Shown here: in pieces, positions 13,257-62,963 of the stretch
Layout: each line of letters starts with the position of its first letter
Numbering within the stretch: the first letter of the stretch is position 1
DNA from: a virus
IMG/VR virus record: IMGVR_UViG_3300010354_020206
Coordinates: 4,576 to 68,575 of that record
Strand: one strand, 5' to 3'
DNA: 64,000 nt
The notes under the pieces: model-generated
What the model was told of the DNA's origin: nothing
The model's database searches: none
Seen by the model: only the letters and a program-made list of their open reading frames with translations
Translations under genes and position numbers: made by a program

Positions 13257-13520
13257 ATGAAGAAACAAAGATTATTGGAAATTCAAAATAAAGCCAGCTC
13301 TGGCAACGCAGAATTGGCTGACTGTGTTGAAATTTTAAGTGAATTTTTTATTTCACAAAGTCAAAACAATAAAGACATAAAAAATGAATTAATTAGTTTG
13401 AACAACAAACTTGATTCTTTGAATAGAAAATTAGATCATTTAATTAAATTTACTTCAACAGATCCCATTGCTCAAATTCTGATTGAAAACATGGAAGAAG
13501 CTGAAGAAGACGAAGAATAA
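13257..13520 (+). CDS. hypothetical coiled-coil protein with acidic tail
   Basis: 87 aa; followed directly by a terminator. Confidence 0.7.
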   Translation: MKKQRLLEIQNKASSGNAELADCVEILSEFFISQSQNNKDIKNELISLNNKLDSLNRKLDHLIKFTSTDPIAQILIENMEEAEEDEE

Positions 13521-13547
13521 AAAACTCCCCTTTCGGGGAGTTTTTTA
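13518..13547. terminator. bidirectional intrinsic terminator
   Basis: AAAAAACTCCCC-TTTC-GGGGAGTTTTTT between convergent genes. Confidence 0.9.
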
Positions 13548-14228
13548 TTTTAAGCTGTCTCCAATTTCCATTGGAACTTTAAACTCTTGTTCACATTTGA
13601 AACATCCAAATTTATCGTGCATGATAAAATAAACATCGGATTCTGAACAATGTGGACATGAAATTTTTTCAATTTCGCCATTCACATTGAAAGTGATTGT
13701 TCCGAGTAAATTAGTATCTTCAATTTTAGGTAATTCCATTCCTTCGCTAAAATTTGAAGGAATAATCAATTTCTTTCTAAGACCCTCTACTGAAAGATCA
13801 GATGCATTTAAGTCTTCTAATAAATCAATTTCTTCTTCAAAATTTGATCTCAGTTCAGATTCAAAATCATCCACTTTAGCTTGTTCAAGTTTGCCAAATT
13901 TTCCTGTAATGTTAGAATTTTCAGGAACAAAATGATTCTTATTTATGATAACATTTTGAACTTGTGAAAAATACTTCACTAATACATTCGTAGTGACTGT
14001 ATCGATTGAGCCCTCTTTTTGTTCTGTTAAATCTGTGTTTAAGATAGCATTGGCTAATCTTCTTGCAGCATAAATGTTGTTATCTTCATCGGGCATGATG
14101 GCAACTGAATCTTCAAAGCTTTTTGCAATCTCTTTGATTCTATTTTGCTCATCCTCTTTAAAATTATCAAGTTCTTTATTGATAGTTTCCCAAAAGGAAA
14201 TTTTACCTTTGCTAAAATTATAATCCAT
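13545..14228 (-). CDS. acidic hypothetical protein with C-terminal zinc ribbon
   Basis: CPHC-x13-CFKC near the C-terminus; GAGGAG RBS upstream. Confidence 0.75.
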   Translation of the reverse strand: MDYNFSKGKISFWETINKELDNFKEDEQNRIKEIAKSFEDSVAIMPDEDNNIYAARRLANAILNTDLTEQKEGSIDTVTTNVLVKYFSQVQNVIINKNHFVPENSNITGKFGKLEQAKVDDFESELRSNFEEEIDLLEDLNASDLSVEGLRKKLIIPSNFSEGMELPKIEDTNLLGTITFNVNGEIEKISCPHCSESDVYFIMHDKFGCFKCEQEFKVPMEIGDSLK

Positions 14229-20633: not shown

Positions 20634-21346
20634 TGTCTAGTGCATACTATTTGCATAAAATTAAACATGAATTATGCTTTGTAAATGATATTACAAATTT
20701 AAAAGATCAAATTTATTCAATTGACATGCCTGTCATAGTGCCCATGAACAAATTGAATGCGACTGACGGTAGAACGCTTTTACAAAGAATTATCTTTCAG
20801 CATTTCAATTCAAACGCTTCAAAACAAATAGGATTTCTCAGAGGCTTAATAACATTACAATCTGAACCTGATCACTTTCAAACACACTTAATGCTTAATT
20901 GTACCACTGATCAACTGAGTGAACCCTCCGAGAGTGAATGGATTTCAGCTATAGAAAACGGGCTAGATACAGGTAATCAAATGTTACCGTTAGCCACAAT
21001 GAGTTCAGACATAAAATTAAACGCATGGGGAATTAAAGATTATGTCTATGAATGTAACATAGAATTTTGGCCCGATAATGAAAACCAAAAAACATTTGTT
21101 TGCGAATGTTTAATCAAATATTTGAAACCAGAAGGAATTGACAACATAAATGTTATCGATTTTGAATCAGGTTTTAACTTTTTGATATTTAGTAAAAAAA
21201 CAAATAGTTACGTTCCATTTTTGATCACTTCAGAAGATAAACCATACTTCTTTTTAACTGACGCTGAAATTATTAGTCATGAAACTCTTGTTTATGAAGA
21301 TAAAATTGGACATGAACTTTTTGTTAAATGTAGAGTAACAAAATAA
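20633..21346 (+). CDS. hypothetical protein
   Basis: 237 aa ORF ending at a terminator. Confidence 0.7.
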   Translation: MSSAYYLHKIKHELCFVNDITNLKDQIYSIDMPVIVPMNKLNATDGRTLLQRIIFQHFNSNASKQIGFLRGLITLQSEPDHFQTHLMLNCTTDQLSEPSESEWISAIENGLDTGNQMLPLATMSSDIKLNAWGIKDYVYECNIEFWPDNENQKTFVCECLIKYLKPEGIDNINVIDFESGFNFLIFSKKTNSYVPFLITSEDKPYFFLTDAEIISHETLVYEDKIGHELFVKCRVTK

Positions 21347-21374
21347 AGCCCCCAATTTAATGGGGGCTTTATTT
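21341..21374. terminator. bidirectional intrinsic terminator
   Basis: AAATAAAGCCCCCA-ATTTAA-TGGGGGCTTTATTT between convergent genes. Confidence 0.9.
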
Positions 21375-21392: not shown

Positions 21393-21791
21393 TTAAACTT
21401 CTTCTGCTGGAATATAATCGTTATCAGGAGCTTGAGGAGCTGGAACCTGAAGCTCAGAAATAAAGTGTGGTTCTGACTCTTCAATGTTAACAGCGGTTAC
21501 GCCATCAAATCCGTACTGAGCGATGATTTCCTTGAATCTATCCTGGAAGGTAGTATTAGCATTCTGCAGCTCTTCTTCTACCTTGTTCAACTGCTCCTGT
21601 GCCTGAGCCTTCTGGGCTTGATAATTTCTTGTGATCTCTTCATACTGAGAATCGATCTGCTTAAGAAAATTATAGGCTTGATAGCCTTGTGACTGCAAAA
21701 AGGTCTGCTGAGCCTGCATGTTGCGCAATTCTGCATACTCTTCAGGGCTAACTGCAGGACGATTATCTGTGGTACCAACTTGTTCTTCCAT
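21393..21791 (-). CDS. Gln/Glu-rich coiled-coil protein
   Basis: ATG 21791 with AAGGA upstream; heptad-rich sequence. Confidence 0.75.
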   Translation of the reverse strand: MEEQVGTTDNRPAVSPEEYAELRNMQAQQTFLQSQGYQAYNFLKQIDSQYEEITRNYQAQKAQAQEQLNKVEEELQNANTTFQDRFKEIIAQYGFDGVTAVNIEESEPHFISELQVPAPQAPDNDYIPAEEV

Positions 21792-21874
21792 TAATTTTTT
21801 CCTTTTCAAAAGAATGATATAAAAGTAATTACTTGTGTTTTACAACACTATTTTTATACATAAATATTATGTAA

Positions 21875-22252
21875 CTATTTTGAGTTTAAAGGTACTAATT
21901 CAGGCAAAATTTCTGATAATTTATTTTGAATTTTATTTGCCAAACCAAATTTAGTAGACTTATTCAATTTAGCGTCTTCATCAGTAATAGTTAGTAATAC
22001 TTCATCATTGATTAAAATTACAGCTTGCCCTTTGATTTTTGAAACAACTATGTCTGATGCCTCTAAAGAAGGAACTAATACATATCTTAGTCTATCATAA
22101 ATGATTTCAGCTCTTTTTGCGCAATTATTCCCTCTTACTGAAAACAAGTGCACACCGCCTAGATTGATAGGCTCTACAACTCTAACTCGCTTGACATCTG
22201 AATGATTAGTTGAGAATAAACTAAACGCCAAAATCAATAAAAACTTATTCAT
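21875..22252 (-). CDS. small exported protein
   Basis: Signal-like N-terminus MNKFLLILAFSLFS; GAGG RBS. Confidence 0.7.
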   Translation of the reverse strand: MNKFLLILAFSLFSTNHSDVKRVRVVEPINLGGVHLFSVRGNNCAKRAEIIYDRLRYVLVPSLEASDIVVSKIKGQAVILINDEVLLTITDEDAKLNKSTKFGLANKIQNKLSEILPELVPLNSK

Positions 22253-22263
22253 AATAATAACCT

Positions 22264-22476
22264 CTAATTGCGTAGATCTTCAAAATTATCTAACGCATAA
22301 GAAAATAAAAATAACGATGAAATCATTACAAAACAAATAATTGTTATAGTGAAAATTATACAGGTTATTATCAGATTGGGAATAAGTTGCATTAATGCAT
22401 AAAAAATTATCAATAGAGGCAGAAAAACATTTATAAGAAGCAACGCTGAAGCTATGATTGCCAAAATTACTTTCAT
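22264..22476 (-). CDS. small two-TM membrane protein
   Basis: 70 aa, almost entirely hydrophobic; GAGGT RBS. Confidence 0.6.
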   Translation of the reverse strand: MKVILAIIASALLLINVFLPLLIIFYALMQLIPNLIITCIIFTITIICFVMISSLFLFSYALDNFEDLRN

Positions 22477-22494
22477 GTAAATACCTCAATTTAA

Positions 22495-22528
22495 ATTTAG
22501 CCCCCTAATATAAAATAGGGGGCTAAAT
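22495..22528. terminator. hairpin, probable terminator
   Basis: ATTTAGCCCCCTA-ATATAAAA-TAGGGGGCTAAAT 13-bp stem. Confidence 0.75.
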
Positions 22529-22656
22529 CTTGCTTCGTTGCAAAGAGTATTTGGGCCACAGCTTTGGGGCCTAATAGAGTAAGCTGCTCAACCTTCGCTC
22601 GTGAACCCAACGAAAGCAAGCCTAATAATGTTTGTCTAAAAGCGTAAACATTATTA
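22529..22656. ncRNA. candidate structured non-coding RNA (family not recognised)
   Basis: 12-bp closing stem 22529-22540/22608-22620 encloses two hairpins with complementary loops; a further 11-bp hairpin lies at 22623-22656; GC-rich relative to the flanks and lacking an ORF. Confidence 0.5.
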
Positions 22657-22721
22657 CATTATGCAATGCTTTTTTTGACAAATGTACTTATCTATTATGT
22701 AATTTTGAGGTAAATTCCTGT

Positions 22722-25166
22722 TTATCCTGAGCACATGATACAGTCTGGATCAGTTAATGAACAGACTTTTGATGCAAAATCTTCCTCATTAAATTGCTTG
22801 ATTTGTTCTACCTCTTTAGTTTTTTCTACTTCAGGAATTGTAGTAGAAGACAAATCGATGCCTAGTCCCTTCAATGCTTGCGCTTTTGGCTTAGTTCTTA
22901 GATAATACATGCCGGTCTTCAATCCAAGCTTCCAACCATACATATGAGCAGAAGACAATCTTGAAGCTGTTGGCTCAGACATAAACATGTTCAATGATTG
23001 AGATTGATCAATAAAATAACCTCTGTCTCTTGCCATCTCAAGTATTGATTTACCCTTCATCTCCCAAACAGTTTTGTAGATTTCTTTGATTTCTTGTGGC
23101 ACTTCTTCAATTTCTTGAACTGAACCATCACCAATAATCAATTTACGTCGTATGTTATCATTCCACACACCCAGATTTACCAAATCCTCAACAAGATGCT
23201 TGTTAATGATAGCGTATTCACCGCTAAGGGTATTCCTCTTGTATAGATTTGCAGTAAAGGGCTCAAAGCATTCATTATTGCCCAAAATCTGAGCTGTTGA
23301 TGCTGTTGGCATTGGAGCAACTAATAAAGAGTTCCTAAGCCCATAATTTTTGATTTCCTCTTTCAGAGACTCAAAATCCCACATACCTGACAAATCAGAT
23401 TCAGTTAAACCCCAAAGATTATACTGGAGCAAGCCTTGTGAAGCCGGAGACCCTTGGAATGAACTATAAGGCCCATGAATTTTTGCCAAATCTTTAGATG
23501 CCGTGAGCGCAGCAAAATAAATAGTCTCAAAGATGTCTTTATTAAGCTTTCTGGCTTCTTCAGATTCAAAAGGCAAGCCCATGAGAGCAAATGTATCTGC
23601 TAATCCCTGCACACCTAATCCAATTGGTCTATGCTTCATGTTTGAGTTTTTTGTTTCAGGTGTTGGATAATAATTAATATCAATTACCTGATTCAAATTA
23701 ACTGTTGCTTGATAAGTAACTTCGTAAAGTTTCTGAAAATCATACTTGCGTAGTTTTTTATCCTTACTGCGAACATTTCCAGTTGGCACAATTACAAACT
23801 TTGGCAAAGCTACAGATGCGAGATTACAAACTGCAATCTCATTCTTGTCCGTAAATTCTAGTATTTCTGTACAGAGATTTGAAGACTTGATAGTTCCAAG
23901 ATTCTTTTGATTGCTCTTGTAGTTACAAGCATCCTTGTATAGCATGTAAGGAGTGCCTGTTTCAACTTGAGAATCTAGAATCTTTTCCCAAAGTTCTCTG
24001 GCCTTAACAGTCTTAGTTGCCTTACCCTCAGATTCATACTTTTCATAGAGTTCTGTGAAAGCTTTGTGCTCTGGAGTATCATAAGCATCAATTAAGCCTG
24101 GTACTTGATCTGGTGAAAATAAAGACCAGTTGCCATTCTCTTCAACGCGCTTCATGAACAAATCTGGAATCCACAAAGCAAGAAACAAATCTCTGGCGCG
24201 AAGTTCTTCTTTTCCTTGATTCTTTCTCAAGTCAAGAAAGTCGAATACATCACCATGCCATGGCTCAAGATAAACTGCTATAGAACCCTTGCGCTTACCG
24301 CCACCCTGATCAACGTATCTTGCTGTTTCATTAAACACGCGAAGCATTGGGATAATTCCGTTGGAATGGCCATTGGTGCCCTTAATGTAACTACCTTTAG
24401 CACGAATTTTATGAATGTTGATGCCGATGCCACCGGCGCTTTGAGAAATCAAAGCACAATCAGAAAGAGTTTTATAAATGCCAGGAATAGAATCATCATC
24501 GATGTCCAAAAGAAAACAAGATGATAATTGGGGGCGATTTGTAGAAGCATTAAACAATGTTGGCGTGGCATGGGTAAACAAACCCTGAGACAGCATGTCA
24601 TAGGTCTTCTGCACCATTTCAAGATTTTCGCGCCAAATACCAACAGCGACTCGCATGTAGAGATGCTGTGGTGTTTCAGCTGGCTTGCCGTCAATCTTAA
24701 GAAGATAAGACTTTTTCAAAGTCATGAACCCAAAATAATCAAAATTGAAATCGCGATCATGAACAATCATAGCATCGAGTTCGGGGGCAAACTTCTGAAT
24801 AATGTCATAAACTTCATCAGAAATCATGCCAGCCTTTTCGCCTGTCTTTGGATTGACATAGTCATAGAGTCTCTTTGCTATAATTGAAAAATCTTTTTCA
24901 ACATCCTTATAAAGGGATGTGATGCCAATTCTTGCAGCTAGCTTACCAAAATCAGGATGAATAGTAACCATTGAGGCAGCTGTTTCAGCACTAAGCTGAT
25001 CAAGCTCTGTACTGCTTACTCCGTCATACAAGCCTGAAACAACCTTAGTGCTAACAACATCTGGGTCTACCAACTCATGTAAACCATAAGTTAACTTTTT
25101 AATTCTAGAAGAAATTTTCTCTAGCTTGAGTGCTTCTCTAGAACCATTACGCTTTACAATATCCAT
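22722..25166 (-). CDS. nrdA: ribonucleotide reductase class Ia large subunit
   Basis: ATP cone (VKRNGSRE), ATPTLFN, QLSSCFL, SSNLCTEI, CNLAS, APMPTAST, KTGMYYLR, C-terminal CxxC. Confidence 0.98.
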   Translation of the reverse strand: MDIVKRNGSREALKLEKISSRIKKLTYGLHELVDPDVVSTKVVSGLYDGVSSTELDQLSAETAASMVTIHPDFGKLAARIGITSLYKDVEKDFSIIAKRLYDYVNPKTGEKAGMISDEVYDIIQKFAPELDAMIVHDRDFNFDYFGFMTLKKSYLLKIDGKPAETPQHLYMRVAVGIWRENLEMVQKTYDMLSQGLFTHATPTLFNASTNRPQLSSCFLLDIDDDSIPGIYKTLSDCALISQSAGGIGINIHKIRAKGSYIKGTNGHSNGIIPMLRVFNETARYVDQGGGKRKGSIAVYLEPWHGDVFDFLDLRKNQGKEELRARDLFLALWIPDLFMKRVEENGNWSLFSPDQVPGLIDAYDTPEHKAFTELYEKYESEGKATKTVKARELWEKILDSQVETGTPYMLYKDACNYKSNQKNLGTIKSSNLCTEILEFTDKNEIAVCNLASVALPKFVIVPTGNVRSKDKKLRKYDFQKLYEVTYQATVNLNQVIDINYYPTPETKNSNMKHRPIGLGVQGLADTFALMGLPFESEEARKLNKDIFETIYFAALTASKDLAKIHGPYSSFQGSPASQGLLQYNLWGLTESDLSGMWDFESLKEEIKNYGLRNSLLVAPMPTASTAQILGNNECFEPFTANLYKRNTLSGEYAIINKHLVEDLVNLGVWNDNIRRKLIIGDGSVQEIEEVPQEIKEIYKTVWEMKGKSILEMARDRGYFIDQSQSLNMFMSEPTASRLSSAHMYGWKLGLKTGMYYLRTKPKAQALKGLGIDLSSTTIPEVEKTKEVEQIKQFNEEDFASKVCSLTDPDCIMCSG

Positions 25167-25168
25167 CC

Positions 25169-26128
25169 TTAAAAGTCCTCATCAAATGAAATAGTCTTAT
25201 TATCTGTTTCGCCTACGCCACTCTTAACGTAGTCAGCTACACGCTTCTCAAAGAAGTTTGTCTTATTAGGCAAAGCGATGTTTTGCATAAAATCAAAAGG
25301 ATTCTCAGAGTTGTATACCTTACCAACACCAAGTTCAACTAATAAACGATCTGATACATACTCAAGATATTGCTTCATAAGATCAGAATTCATACCAATC
25401 AAGCTAACTGGAAGAGCTTCTGTGATAAATTCCTTCTCGATTACAAGAGCCGAATCAATAATCTCGATAATGCGCTCACGAGAAAGCTTATTCTCGATGT
25501 GGTGATTGTATAGATGGACTGCAAAATCAGTATGCAATCCTTCATCACGAGAAATCAACTCATTGGAGAAAGACAAGCCAGGCATCTTGCCCTGCTTCTT
25601 AAGCCAGAAAATAGAACAGAATGATCCAGAAAAGAAAATACCTTCTACTGCAGCAAACGCAATCAGACGCTCTGTGAATGATTCAGAGCCAATCCACTTG
25701 AGAGCCCATTCTGCCTTCTTCTGAACAGCAGGGACTGTGTCGATTGCGTTGAAAAGATAATTCTGCTCTTCTTTATCCTTGATGTAAGTATCTATAAGAA
25801 GAGAGTATGTCTCAGAATGGATGTTTTCCATCATAATTTGGAAACCATAGAAAAATTTAGCTTCAGTGTACTGAACTTCTGAAACAAAATTTTCTGCAAG
25901 GTTCTCGTTAACGATGCCATCAGAAGCTGCAAAGAAAGCTAAAACATGCTTGATAAAATGCTGTTCATTAGGTTTTAATTGCTCCCAGTCAGCAAGATCT
26001 TGTGCTAAATCAATCTCTTCAGCGGTCCAGAAAACCTGCTCAGCTTTCTTGTAAAACTCCCAAATGTCATGATGTTGCAAGGGGAACAATACAAACCTAT
26101 TTTTATTTTCTTGTAAAATCTTTTCCAT
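25169..26128 (-). CDS. nrdB: ribonucleotide reductase class Ia small subunit
   Basis: [57 protein letters not shown]. Confidence 0.98.
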
Positions 26129-62932: not shown

Positions 62933-62963
62933 TAAATCCCCTTACAGAGGGGATTTATTTTTT
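62933..62963 (+). terminator. intrinsic terminator
   Basis: TAAATCCCCT-TACAG-AGGGGATTTA followed by a T-run. Confidence 0.85.

What the first reader, a model, noticed from the sequence alone, without database searches (positions are those of the whole stretch)
22529..22656. Candidate novel ncRNA with complementary (kissing) loops downstream of nrdA
Seen: CTTGCTTCGTTG (22529-40) pairs with CAACGAAAGCAAG (22608-20; 12 bp, one bulge). Inside, hairpin 22548-22576 presents CAGCTT (22559-64) and the adjacent hairpin 22577-22589 presents AAGCTG (22581-86), an exact 6-bp complement. It is bounded by a 13-bp terminator-like hairpin (22495-22528) and an 11-bp hairpin (22623-22656). Promoter-like elements favour minus-strand transcription, while G-U pairs slightly favour the plus strand. 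I do not recognise it as tRNA, SRP, 6S, hammerhead or a SAM/lysine riboswitch. Inference: an intra- or intermolecular loop-loop RNA (conceptually like phi29 pRNA), or an unknown riboswitch or ribozyme.
Basis: partly seen in the sequence, partly recalled or inferred. Interest (0 to 1): 0.7.

Follow-up and report, generated by a model that had tools for sequence, protein, structure and literature searches.

The report
Conserved structured leader downstream of phage nrdA
The spacer after the ribonucleotide reductase gene of an uncultured freshwater jumbo phage holds a real, evolutionarily conserved set of hairpins, most likely an RNA leader with a leaky terminator in front of three small genes, but the proposed kissing loops are not conserved.

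Summary
The 245-nt spacer (22477-22721) lies between nrdA and a small membrane-protein gene, both on the minus strand, in a fragment of an uncultured jumbo phage.

The element is real. In three lineages that share the region at 82-85% nt identity, the core (22494-22622) is 88-90% identical. nrdA third codon positions are only 61-65% identical (p about 1e-10). All 18 variable columns fall in loops or linkers, or keep pairing on the minus strand.

It matches no Rfam family, tRNA or tmRNA. It is absent from 80 nrdA-related phage loci and 4 large related phage records; 21 of those loci were read after the nrdA stop, and all 21 show a hairpin followed by a T run.

The second hairpin sits in an indel-rich variable linker. 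The 6-bp loop complement decays to 5 and then 4 bp without compensation. P1-like stems occur at chance frequency. Covariation is one pair, which is not significant.

Best reading (about 0.5): a minus-strand leader/3'UTR with a sigma70-like promoter, conserved hairpins, and a terminator-style hairpin that must be read through to express orf70-orf125-orf138. No expression data exist.

Modest interest: an orphan, narrowly distributed candidate RNA motif.

The parts
22722..25166 (-). nrdA (class I ribonucleotide reductase large subunit). Its stop codon is the upstream border of the spacer. nrdB lies just upstream at 25169-26128.
   Evidence: Pfam Ribonuc_red_lgC E 1.8e-209, Ribonuc_red_lgN and ATP-cone; nrdB Ribonuc_red_sm E 5.7e-113.
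22650..22681 (-). Sigma70-like promoter on the minus strand: -35 TTGTCA (22681-22676) and an extended -10 TGT-AATAAT (22658-22650). The spacer is 20 nt in the window and 17 nt in the relatives. The inferred start is near 22645-22641.
   Evidence: Both hexamers and the TG are invariant in 5 of 5 aligned sequences. The scan tool calls TTGTCA-17-AATAAT with TG (10 of 12) in L097 and L095. It does not call it in the window, where three extra A lengthen the spacer. The start site is inferred, not measured.
22623..22656 (.). Its minus-strand 5' arm is the -10 element itself.
   Evidence: I3. L095/L096 carry two changes that give A.C mismatches on the minus strand and G.U pairs on the plus strand. 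The loop varies (22638).
22586..22621 (-). Hairpin B, which exists only on the minus strand: 13 pairs (9 Watson-Crick, 4 G.U) and one bulge. The loop is at 22600-22608. It is mutually exclusive with P1.
   Evidence: It is in the MFE of the window spacer and of 3 of 3 lineages' leaders, and in the RNAalifold consensus. Both arms are invariant. The only changes (TT to AA; 22605/22606 in a public contig) fall in the loop.
22608..22620 (.).
   Evidence: It is invariant in all relatives.
22529..22540 (.). P1, the other strand. On the minus strand it also forms a small 4-bp hairpin (22540-22543 with 22530-22533).
   Evidence: One A-to-G change in L097/L098 gives U.G on minus and C.A on plus.
22573..22581 (.). 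Variable linker.
   Evidence: Substitutions plus 1-nt and 2-nt indels in the relatives. Variants at 22575, 22577, 22579 and a deletion at 22581 appear in public contigs. Indels that are not multiples of three rule out a conserved ORF across it.
22552..22573 (.).
   Evidence: It is in the consensus folds of both strands. The stem core is invariant. One basal pair changes U-A to A-U (compensatory), and one apical A-U becomes G.U on minus.
22495..22528 (-). Hairpin T: a 13-bp terminator-style hairpin with a GC core AGCCCCC/GGGGGCU. It ends 7 nt before the Shine-Dalgarno GAGG (22487-22484) of orf70.
   Evidence: I1. The stem is invariant except one basal A-U to G.U change on minus, which is A.C on plus. 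The loop varies. It has the same style as the window's other gene-end hairpins at 2214-2244, 13516-13549, 21341-21374 and 62933-62957. Its T run is weak, and the scan tool calls no terminator.
22264..22476 (-). orf70, a small two-helix hydrophobic protein and the first gene after the element.
   Evidence: The ORF, ATG and SD are kept in 3 of 3 lineages (67-75 aa). tblastn identity is 70-77%. No Pfam or PHROG family matches.
21875..22252 (-). orf125, a signal-peptide protein and the second gene of the unit.
   Evidence: 15 homologues at 62-96% identity. No Pfam or PHROG family matches.
21393..21809 (-). orf138 (the likely true ATG is at 21791), the third gene. It is followed by the bidirectional terminator at 21341-21374.
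   Evidence: 88-90% aa identity in L095-L099. ATG position. Terminator hairpin.

Best explanation
The spacer is a conserved, lineage-specific, structured RNA region read on the minus strand. It is both the 3' untranslated end of the nrdB-nrdA transcript and the 5' leader of a three-gene unit: orf70 (a small membrane protein), orf125 (a secreted protein) and orf138.

It carries a sigma70-like promoter with an extended -10. Next come three conserved hairpins: B, P3 and a small 4-bp one. Last comes T, a 13-bp hairpin in the style of this phage's terminators, which ends 7 nt before the ribosome-binding site of orf70.

There is no room for a promoter between T and orf70. Polymerases must therefore read through T to express the three genes. 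T thus acts as a leaky or regulated terminator (an attenuator). It sets how much transcription from nrdBA and from the internal promoter continues downstream. Termination at T would release a roughly 150-nt structured RNA as a by-product.

Shown: sequence conservation far above neutral, the location of variation, the anatomy, and the absence from known families.

Inferred: the transcribed strand, promoter activity, termination at T, and any regulation by the upstream hairpins.
For: Conservation:
- L095-L098 are collinear with the window from nrdA to orf138 at 82-85% nt identity.
- The core 22494-22622 is 116/130, 113/129 and 116/129 identical in the three pairwise comparisons.
- nrdA third codon positions are 0.61-0.65 identical (binomial p 3e-10 to 1e-12).
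- The T-to-ATG spacer is 0.29-0.53 identical, and the spacer after orf138 is 0.54-0.72.

Pattern of change:
- Of 18 variable columns, 14 lie in loops or linkers of the minus-strand hairpin model.
- The other 4 columns keep pairing: one compensatory pair (2 columns) and two A-U to G.U changes.
- That is 4 variable of 66 paired columns against 14 of 64 unpaired (Fisher p 0.011).
- The same changes give C.A or A.C mismatches in P1 and T on the plus strand.
- Hairpin B has 4 G.U pairs and can form only on the minus strand. It explains the invariance of 22586-22599, which is mostly unpaired in the plus-strand model.

Anatomy:
- All flanking genes are on the minus strand.
- TTGTCA-17-AATAAT with TG is called in L097 and L095.
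- The SD and ATG of orf70 are kept.
- T resembles the window's other gene-end hairpins.
- Of the 80 related loci that lack the element, I read the stretch after the nrdA stop in 21. All 21 show a hairpin followed by a T run right after the stop, which puts the operon's end here.

Not coding: 1- and 2-nt indels lie in the linker.
Against: - There is no expression evidence of any kind.
- Covariation is one pair in 48, and 116 of 500 shuffles do as well. Only three lineages are available.
- The consensus fold energies of the two strands are equal (-50.5 minus, -51.3 plus).
- The I3 hairpin's two changes favour the plus strand.
- In the window itself the promoter spacer is 20 nt, and the scan tool does not call the promoter.
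- T lacks a clean U run, and no terminator is called by the tool in the window or in the relatives.
- The P1-bounded core alone is not unusually stable on the minus strand (z -0.55).
- Another spacer of the same unit (21810-21874) is even more conserved (91-94%). High conservation of spacers in this module is therefore not specific to this element.
- One public contig joins 22347 to 22493. This removes the start of orf70 but keeps T. If that contig is real, the element can exist without an intact orf70.
Confidence: 0.5

Rival explanations
1. An independent trans-acting small RNA gene on the minus strand. It would be about 150 nt, running from the internal promoter to hairpin T, like 3'UTR-derived sRNAs with their own promoter. 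Its invariant unpaired stretch (22541-22551, AAUACUCUUUG) would be the seed that pairs with a host or phage mRNA.
For: - The order promoter, then structured body, then terminator-style hairpin fits an sRNA gene.
- An 11-nt segment that is unpaired in every model is invariant.
- A public contig keeps T and the element while deleting the start of orf70.
Against: - T has a poor U run.
- orf70 has no promoter of its own, so T cannot be efficient.
- No complementary target was found in the 64-kb window (only the self match, at up to 3 mismatches in 18). The host is unknown, so host targets could not be tested.
Confidence: 0.2
2. DNA-level signals only. The spacer would be a promoter with an operator-like inverted repeat (I3 over the -10) plus one or more terminator hairpins. 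It would be conserved because proteins and polymerase recognise the DNA or the nascent hairpins. The folded RNA as a whole would have no function.
For: - I3 overlaps the -10, and its changes do not respect minus-strand RNA pairing.
- The strand signals are mixed, and consensus energies are equal on both strands.
- Another spacer in the unit is equally conserved.
- T-style hairpins mark gene ends elsewhere in the window.
Against: - About 95 nt between I3 and T (22529-22622) are nearly invariant apart from the loops and the linker. Neither a promoter nor a single terminator explains that.
- Hairpin B needs G.U pairs, an RNA feature.
- Variation avoids stems.
Confidence: 0.17
3. A P1-closed RNA whose two hairpin loops kiss, within one molecule or between molecules (phi29 pRNA-like). 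Alternatively, a new riboswitch or ribozyme built on that fold.
For: - P1 (12 bp) is kept in all lineages, and its one change is a wobble on minus.
- The 4-bp core CAGC/GCUG of the loop complement is invariant.
- P1 ends directly at the foot of T, as in many riboswitch expression platforms.
- P1 and hairpin B are mutually exclusive, so a two-state switch is possible.
Against: - The second hairpin is not conserved.
- The complement erodes from 6 to 5 to 4 bp without compensation.
- P1-like stems occur at chance frequency.
- The core is not unusually stable.
- No Rfam riboswitch or ribozyme appears even at E up to 10.
- Neither alternative pairing touches T, so the switch has no evident read-out.
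- The element is not next to packaging genes.
Confidence: 0.08
4. A plus-strand antisense RNA, for example the antitoxin of a type I toxin-antitoxin-like pair. It would cover the ribosome-binding site of the small hydrophobic orf70 and carry hairpin T.
For: - orf70 is small and hydrophobic.
- A promoter-like site lies on the plus strand at 22430-22458 in the window, and another at the equivalent place in L097.
- I3 changes and one P3 G.U pair favour the plus strand.
Against: - The plus-strand promoter-like sites differ in sequence between lineages, and none is called in L095 at that place.
- They are no more frequent than in shuffles.
- orf70 has two helices and 67-75 residues, and it sits in an operon with two more genes. 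By my recollection this is unlike typical type I toxins.
- P1 and T each take a disruptive change on plus.
Confidence: 0.05

Closest known systems
Transcription-attenuation leaders and riboswitch-type leaders (general class; recalled knowledge)
   Same: The order is promoter, conserved structured RNA, terminator-style hairpin, then the ribosome-binding site of the first gene. There are two mutually exclusive pairings of one invariant segment.
   Different: It matches no known aptamer. The alternative pairings do not involve the terminator hairpin. No leader peptide, ligand or binding protein is identified. It is known from only three lineages.
3'UTR-derived small RNAs with an internal promoter that share the mRNA's terminator (e.g. 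DapZ, MicL; recalled, not tested here)
   Same: It lies directly after a conserved operon (nrdBA). It has a promoter-like site just after the stop codon, and its first terminator-style hairpin would serve both transcripts.
   Different: The hairpin is immediately followed by further genes that depend on read-through. No target and no expression data exist.
Processive antitermination RNAs (HK022 put, Bacillus EAR; recalled)
   Same: It is a cis-acting structured RNA placed between a promoter and a terminator in a phage or operon context.
   Different: There is no sequence or structure match: no EAR-like hit appeared in the Rfam scan, and put was not compared directly. Nothing shows that polymerase is modified.
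phi29 pRNA
   Same: It has two loops with complementary sequences in one small phage RNA.
   Different: The complement is not maintained in relatives. One of the two hairpins is not conserved. The element sits after nrdA rather than at a genome end beside packaging genes.
Phage morons (independent promoter-gene-terminator cassettes; recalled concept)
   Same: The element and the three genes are present only in this lineage. By tblastn, blastn and the covariance model, none of the 80 nrdA-related loci holds the element or the three genes within 3 kb of nrdA. The downstream stretch was read in 21 of them, and each shows a terminator-like hairpin followed by different genes.
   Different: The unit has a 150-nt conserved structured leader. 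The insertion borders could not be defined, because synteny ends at nrdA on this side in all relatives.

Membership tests
Any Rfam 15 family (riboswitches, ribozymes, sRNAs, 6S, SRP, guanidine-II/IV kissing-loop riboswitches, EAR and others) | A covariance-model score at or above the family's gathering threshold | tested here: not met
   There are 0 matches at gathering in the whole window. In 22200-23000 at E up to 10, there are 10 matches with E 0.9-9.6, all far below threshold (best 21.4 bits against 80).
tRNA / tmRNA | A cloverleaf or tmRNA fold recognised by ARAGORN | tested here: not met
   0 genes in the window.
Intrinsic (Rho-independent) terminator, for hairpin T | A GC-rich stem | tested here: met
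   A 13-bp perfect stem with 6 G-C pairs, invariant in the relatives.
Intrinsic (Rho-independent) terminator, for hairpin T | A run of U directly after the stem | tested here: inconclusive
   The tails are UUAAAUU (window), UUUAUUU (L097) and UGACUUU (L095).
Sigma70-type promoter | -35 and -10 hexamers with a 16-18 nt spacer | tested here: inconclusive
   Met in L097 and L095 (TTGTCA-17-AATAAT with TG, 10 of 12). The window has the same hexamers and TG but a 20-nt spacer, and is not called. Activity was not tested.
phi29 pRNA-like loop-loop RNA | Loop-loop complementarity maintained, through covariation, among relatives | tested here: not met
   6 bp in the window, 5 in L097/L098 and 4 in L095/L096, with no compensating change.
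phi29 pRNA-like loop-loop RNA | Both hairpins conserved | tested here: not met
   The second hairpin lies in the indel-rich linker.
Riboswitch (generic) | An aptamer supported by covariation across diverse homologues | tested here: inconclusive
   There are only three lineages. One compensatory pair was found in 48, and 116 of 500 shuffles do as well. No homologue was found outside the lineage.
Riboswitch (generic) | Ligand-dependent structural change | not testable with these tools
   This needs in-line probing or a similar assay.
Type I toxin-antitoxin locus | A small hydrophobic toxin with a conserved antisense RNA promoter | tested here: inconclusive
   orf70 is hydrophobic and 67-75 aa long. 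Plus-strand promoter-like sites are not conserved in sequence and are no more frequent than in shuffles.

The most novel reading that the evidence does not exclude
The invariant segment CUUGCUUUCGUUG can pair either locally (hairpin B) or with the distal strand at the foot of hairpin T (P1). The element could therefore be a new two-state regulatory RNA: a riboswitch, or a protein- or RNA-responsive antiterminator. It would gate read-through from the nucleotide-metabolism operon into a membrane/secreted-protein cassette, and it would be confined to a lineage of uncultured freshwater jumbo phages.
Probability: 0.12. Interest if true: 0.6.

Novelty: new member of a known kind. Interest (0 to 1): 0.3.

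Why it matters
Structured regulatory RNAs of uncultured jumbo phages are almost unexplored. A GC-rich, conserved spacer in an AT-rich genome is the classic signature of such an RNA.

If the leader really controls read-through from nrdBA into a lineage-specific cassette, it would show how these phages bolt accessory genes onto a core operon and tune them.

As it stands, it is an orphan candidate motif known from three lineages of one phage group. It has no expression data and no statistical support for its fold. Its value is as a well-delimited target for a reporter or transcriptome experiment, not as a discovery.

Tried and rejected
Known families. The Rfam, tRNA and tmRNA scans gave nothing.

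Coding. The 40-aa TTG ORF at 22497-22619 is rejected, because the relatives carry 1- and 2-nt indels inside it.

Repeat or mobile element.
- The element occurs once in the 68.5-kb record.
- The 16-nt direct repeat flanking the spacer (D1) is not conserved in the relatives. A MITE-like insertion was therefore dropped.
- The same holds for the 8-bp anti-SD pairing 22705-12 with 22482-89 (I11).

Homologue hunts that found nothing:
- blastn against the phage collection.
- blastn and a covariance model against 80 nrdA-related loci.
- The whole records of five large related phages by blastn, and four of them plus the own record by the model.
- Exact-pattern scans of viral contigs. The 4 hits are unrelated coding DNA.
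- Exact-pattern scans of metagenome contigs and genome contigs.
- orf125 and its alignment in viral contigs.

Trans target. Only the self match was found in the window.

Function of the downstream genes. Pfam, PHROGs and the protein atlas gave no family.

Literature. One full-text search ('jumbo phage', 'noncoding RNA', 'intergenic', 'ribonucleotide reductase'; 214 papers held 3 of the 4 terms, 12 listed) showed nothing relevant in the listing. I read no paper. This does not show that the element is unpublished. DapZ, MicL, put, EAR, pRNA, morons and type I toxin features are recalled, not checked.

Expression. No RNA holder was listed among the sequencing runs. X19 is labelled RNA-Seq, but the tool marks it as probably DNA, and its contigs say nothing on expression.

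Parts without cover are not interpreted. The loose ends in X11 at 22529 and 22562, and the joint 22347 to 22493, rest on single contigs and are leads only.

Earlier notes of this scan showed nothing overlapping this spacer.

Full report
**Context**

The window is part of a 68,575-base IMG/VR virus record. CheckV rates it 19% complete, which implies a jumbo phage of roughly 360 kb.

The finding lies in a 245-nt spacer (22477-22721) between two minus-strand genes:
- Upstream is nrdA (22722-25166; Pfam Ribonuc_red_lgC E 1.8e-209), preceded by nrdB.
- Downstream is a 70-codon hydrophobic ORF (22264-22476), followed by orf125 and orf138. A bidirectional terminator hairpin at 21341-21374 closes the unit.

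The closest NrdA among cultured phages is that of Tenacibaculum phage pT24, at 55% identity. No cultured phage matches at the DNA level.

**The observation**

How far they exceed chance differs by feature.
- The spacer as a whole folds far better than shuffles on both strands (z -7.2 and -6.2).
- It is a GC island: 46-47% against 23-33% in the flanks.
- Most of the fold signal comes from the 13-bp and 11-bp perfect hairpins.
- The P1-bounded 92-nt core has z -2.07 on plus and -0.55 on minus.
- P1-like stems occur 9 times in the window, against 6-14 in block shuffles.
- In the plus-strand MFE the second 'loop' is mostly inside a 5-bp stem.

**Known families**

There is no Rfam match at gathering in the whole window. 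Nothing scores better than E 0.9 in the 800 bases around the element. No tRNA or tmRNA was found.

**Relatives without the element**

I fetched 80 IMG/VR loci encoding NrdA at 58-88% identity.
- None holds the element by blastn or by a covariance model built later (0 of 80).
- None holds orf70, orf125 or orf138 within 3 kb.
- I read the stretch after the nrdA stop in 21 of the 80. All 21 show a hairpin followed by a T run directly after the stop, and then different genes.
- Five large related records (120-358 kb) have no match by blastn.
- Four of them have no match by the model (best E 2.5).

**Relatives with the element**

orf125 has 15 homologues at 62-96% identity. An alignment of them retrieved eight metagenome loci.
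- Four of these (L095-L098, forming two lineages) are collinear with the window from nrdA to orf138 at 82-85% nt identity. Their NrdA is 95-96% identical at the protein level.
- L099 covers only orf125 and orf138.
- L100-L102 are GC-rich bacterial loci with distant homologues.

Public contigs of four runs add small variants.

**Conservation**

| Region | Pairwise identity |
|---|---|
| Core 22494-22622 | 88-90% |
| nrdA third codon positions | 61-65% |
| 17 nt between T and the ATG (22477-22493) | 29-53% |
| Spacer after orf138 | 54-72% |

The core exceeds the nrdA third-position rate with p 3e-10 to 1e-12. The element is therefore under purifying selection.

It is not coding, because the relatives differ by 1-nt and 2-nt indels in the linker.

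A caveat applies. The spacer between orf125 and orf138 is 91-94% identical. Conserved spacers are thus a feature of this module, not of this element alone.

**Where the changes fall**

There are 18 variable columns in the 130-column core alignment.
- They lie in the loop of a minus-strand hairpin B (22600-22608), the linker 22573-22581, the loop of P3, the loop of a small 4-bp hairpin (equivalently, a wobble position of P1), and the loop of T.
- Four more lie in paired columns. One P3 basal pair changes U-A to A-U (two columns). Two are A-U to G.U changes on the minus strand.
- This gives 4 variable of 66 paired columns against 14 of 64 unpaired (Fisher p 0.011).
- On the plus strand, the P1 and T changes become C.A and A.C mismatches.
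- Against this, two changes in the 11-bp hairpin I3 give A.C mismatches on minus and G.U pairs on plus.
- Formal covariation is nil: one compensatory pair in 48, with 116 of 500 shuffles doing as well.
- Consensus energies are equal on the two strands.

- The second hairpin (22577-22589) sits in the variable linker and is lost in both related lineages. The variants seen in public contigs also disrupt it.
- The 6-bp complement shrinks to 5 and then 4 bp without compensation. Only CAGC/GCUG stays.
- P1 is retained but is not unusual by chance.
- On the minus strand P1 competes with hairpin B, which uses the same invariant 5' segment. RNAfold prefers B in 3 of 3 lineages, and so does RNAalifold.

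**Anatomy on the minus strand**

- Just after the nrdA stop lies TTGTCA, and 17 nt later TGT-AATAAT, in L097 and L095. The tool calls this a promoter with TG (10 of 12).
- The window has the same motifs with three extra A in the spacer, and the tool does not call it there.
- The -10 is the 5' arm of I3. A transcript from this promoter would therefore not contain I3 as a hairpin. This would reconcile the I3 changes with a minus-strand RNA, but it is an inference.
- Then follow B, the linker, P3, an invariant unpaired AAUACUCUUUG, the small hairpin, and T.
- T ends 7 nt before the conserved Shine-Dalgarno sequence of orf70.
- orf70 is kept as a two-helix protein of 67-75 residues in all three lineages.
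- No promoter can fit between T and orf70, so the three genes depend on read-through of T.
- T has the style of the window's other gene-end hairpins, but its U run is weak and the tool calls no terminator.

**Reading**

I judge that the spacer is most likely a minus-strand leader and 3'UTR whose terminal hairpin acts as a leaky or regulated terminator (0.5).

| Rival | Probability |
|---|---|
| Stand-alone small RNA | 0.2 |
| DNA-level signals only | 0.17 |
| Plus-strand antisense RNA against orf70 | 0.05 |

None of these can be separated without RNA data. No RNA-holding run was listed (see the tried-and-rejected section).

**Novelty and score**

The element belongs to no described family. It is confined, in everything I could search, to three lineages of one uncultured phage group. 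It is a new orphan example of a known kind of feature: a structured leader or 3'UTR element with a terminator-style hairpin.

Interest is 0.3. The conservation is solid. The fold, the strand and the function are not established, and the striking feature that drew attention, the kissing loops, does not hold up.

Noticed in passing
window 21810-21874 (minus strand): The spacer between orf125 and the likely true ATG of orf138 (21791) is 91-94% identical among the three lineages. It holds a 5-bp hairpin GUGUU-GUAA-AACAC. In L095 this hairpin shows a compensatory U-A to C-G change and a GAAA loop. It may be a second conserved regulatory signal.
   Followed up: partly
L007-L026 and L040, first 40 nt after the nrdA stop: The 21 loci I read all carry a hairpin followed by a T run right after the nrdA stop, although the genes that follow differ. 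In most of the 21 it is a near-identical AGAGGGGAGAAATCCCCTCT-type hairpin. The end of nrdA looks like a hot spot for gene-cassette exchange.
   Followed up: no
window 22348-22492: One contig of run X11 joins 22347 to 22493. This deletes the ribosome-binding site and the first 43 codons of orf70 but keeps hairpin T. It rests on a single contig.
   Followed up: no
window 22529 and 22562: X11 contigs match the element only from 22529 onward, or only up to 22562, and then continue into unrelated sequence (loose ends). These may be recombinant or related elements with other flanks.
   Followed up: no
window 22669-22675: The A run in the promoter spacer is 7 A in the window and 4 A in L095-L098. 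This changes the -35/-10 spacing from 17 to 20 nt.
   Followed up: partly
window 21875-22252; L100-L102: orf125 is a signal-peptide protein with no Pfam or PHROG family. It has 15 close homologues, and it has distant (30-37%) homologues in GC-rich bacterial contigs. Its nearest protein-atlas clusters are unnamed bacterial proteins.
   Followed up: partly
window 22482-22489 and 22705-22712: An 8-bp complement lies between a site just after the nrdA stop and the Shine-Dalgarno region of orf70 (I11; used in the MFE). It is not conserved in the relatives, so it is probably chance.
   Followed up: yes
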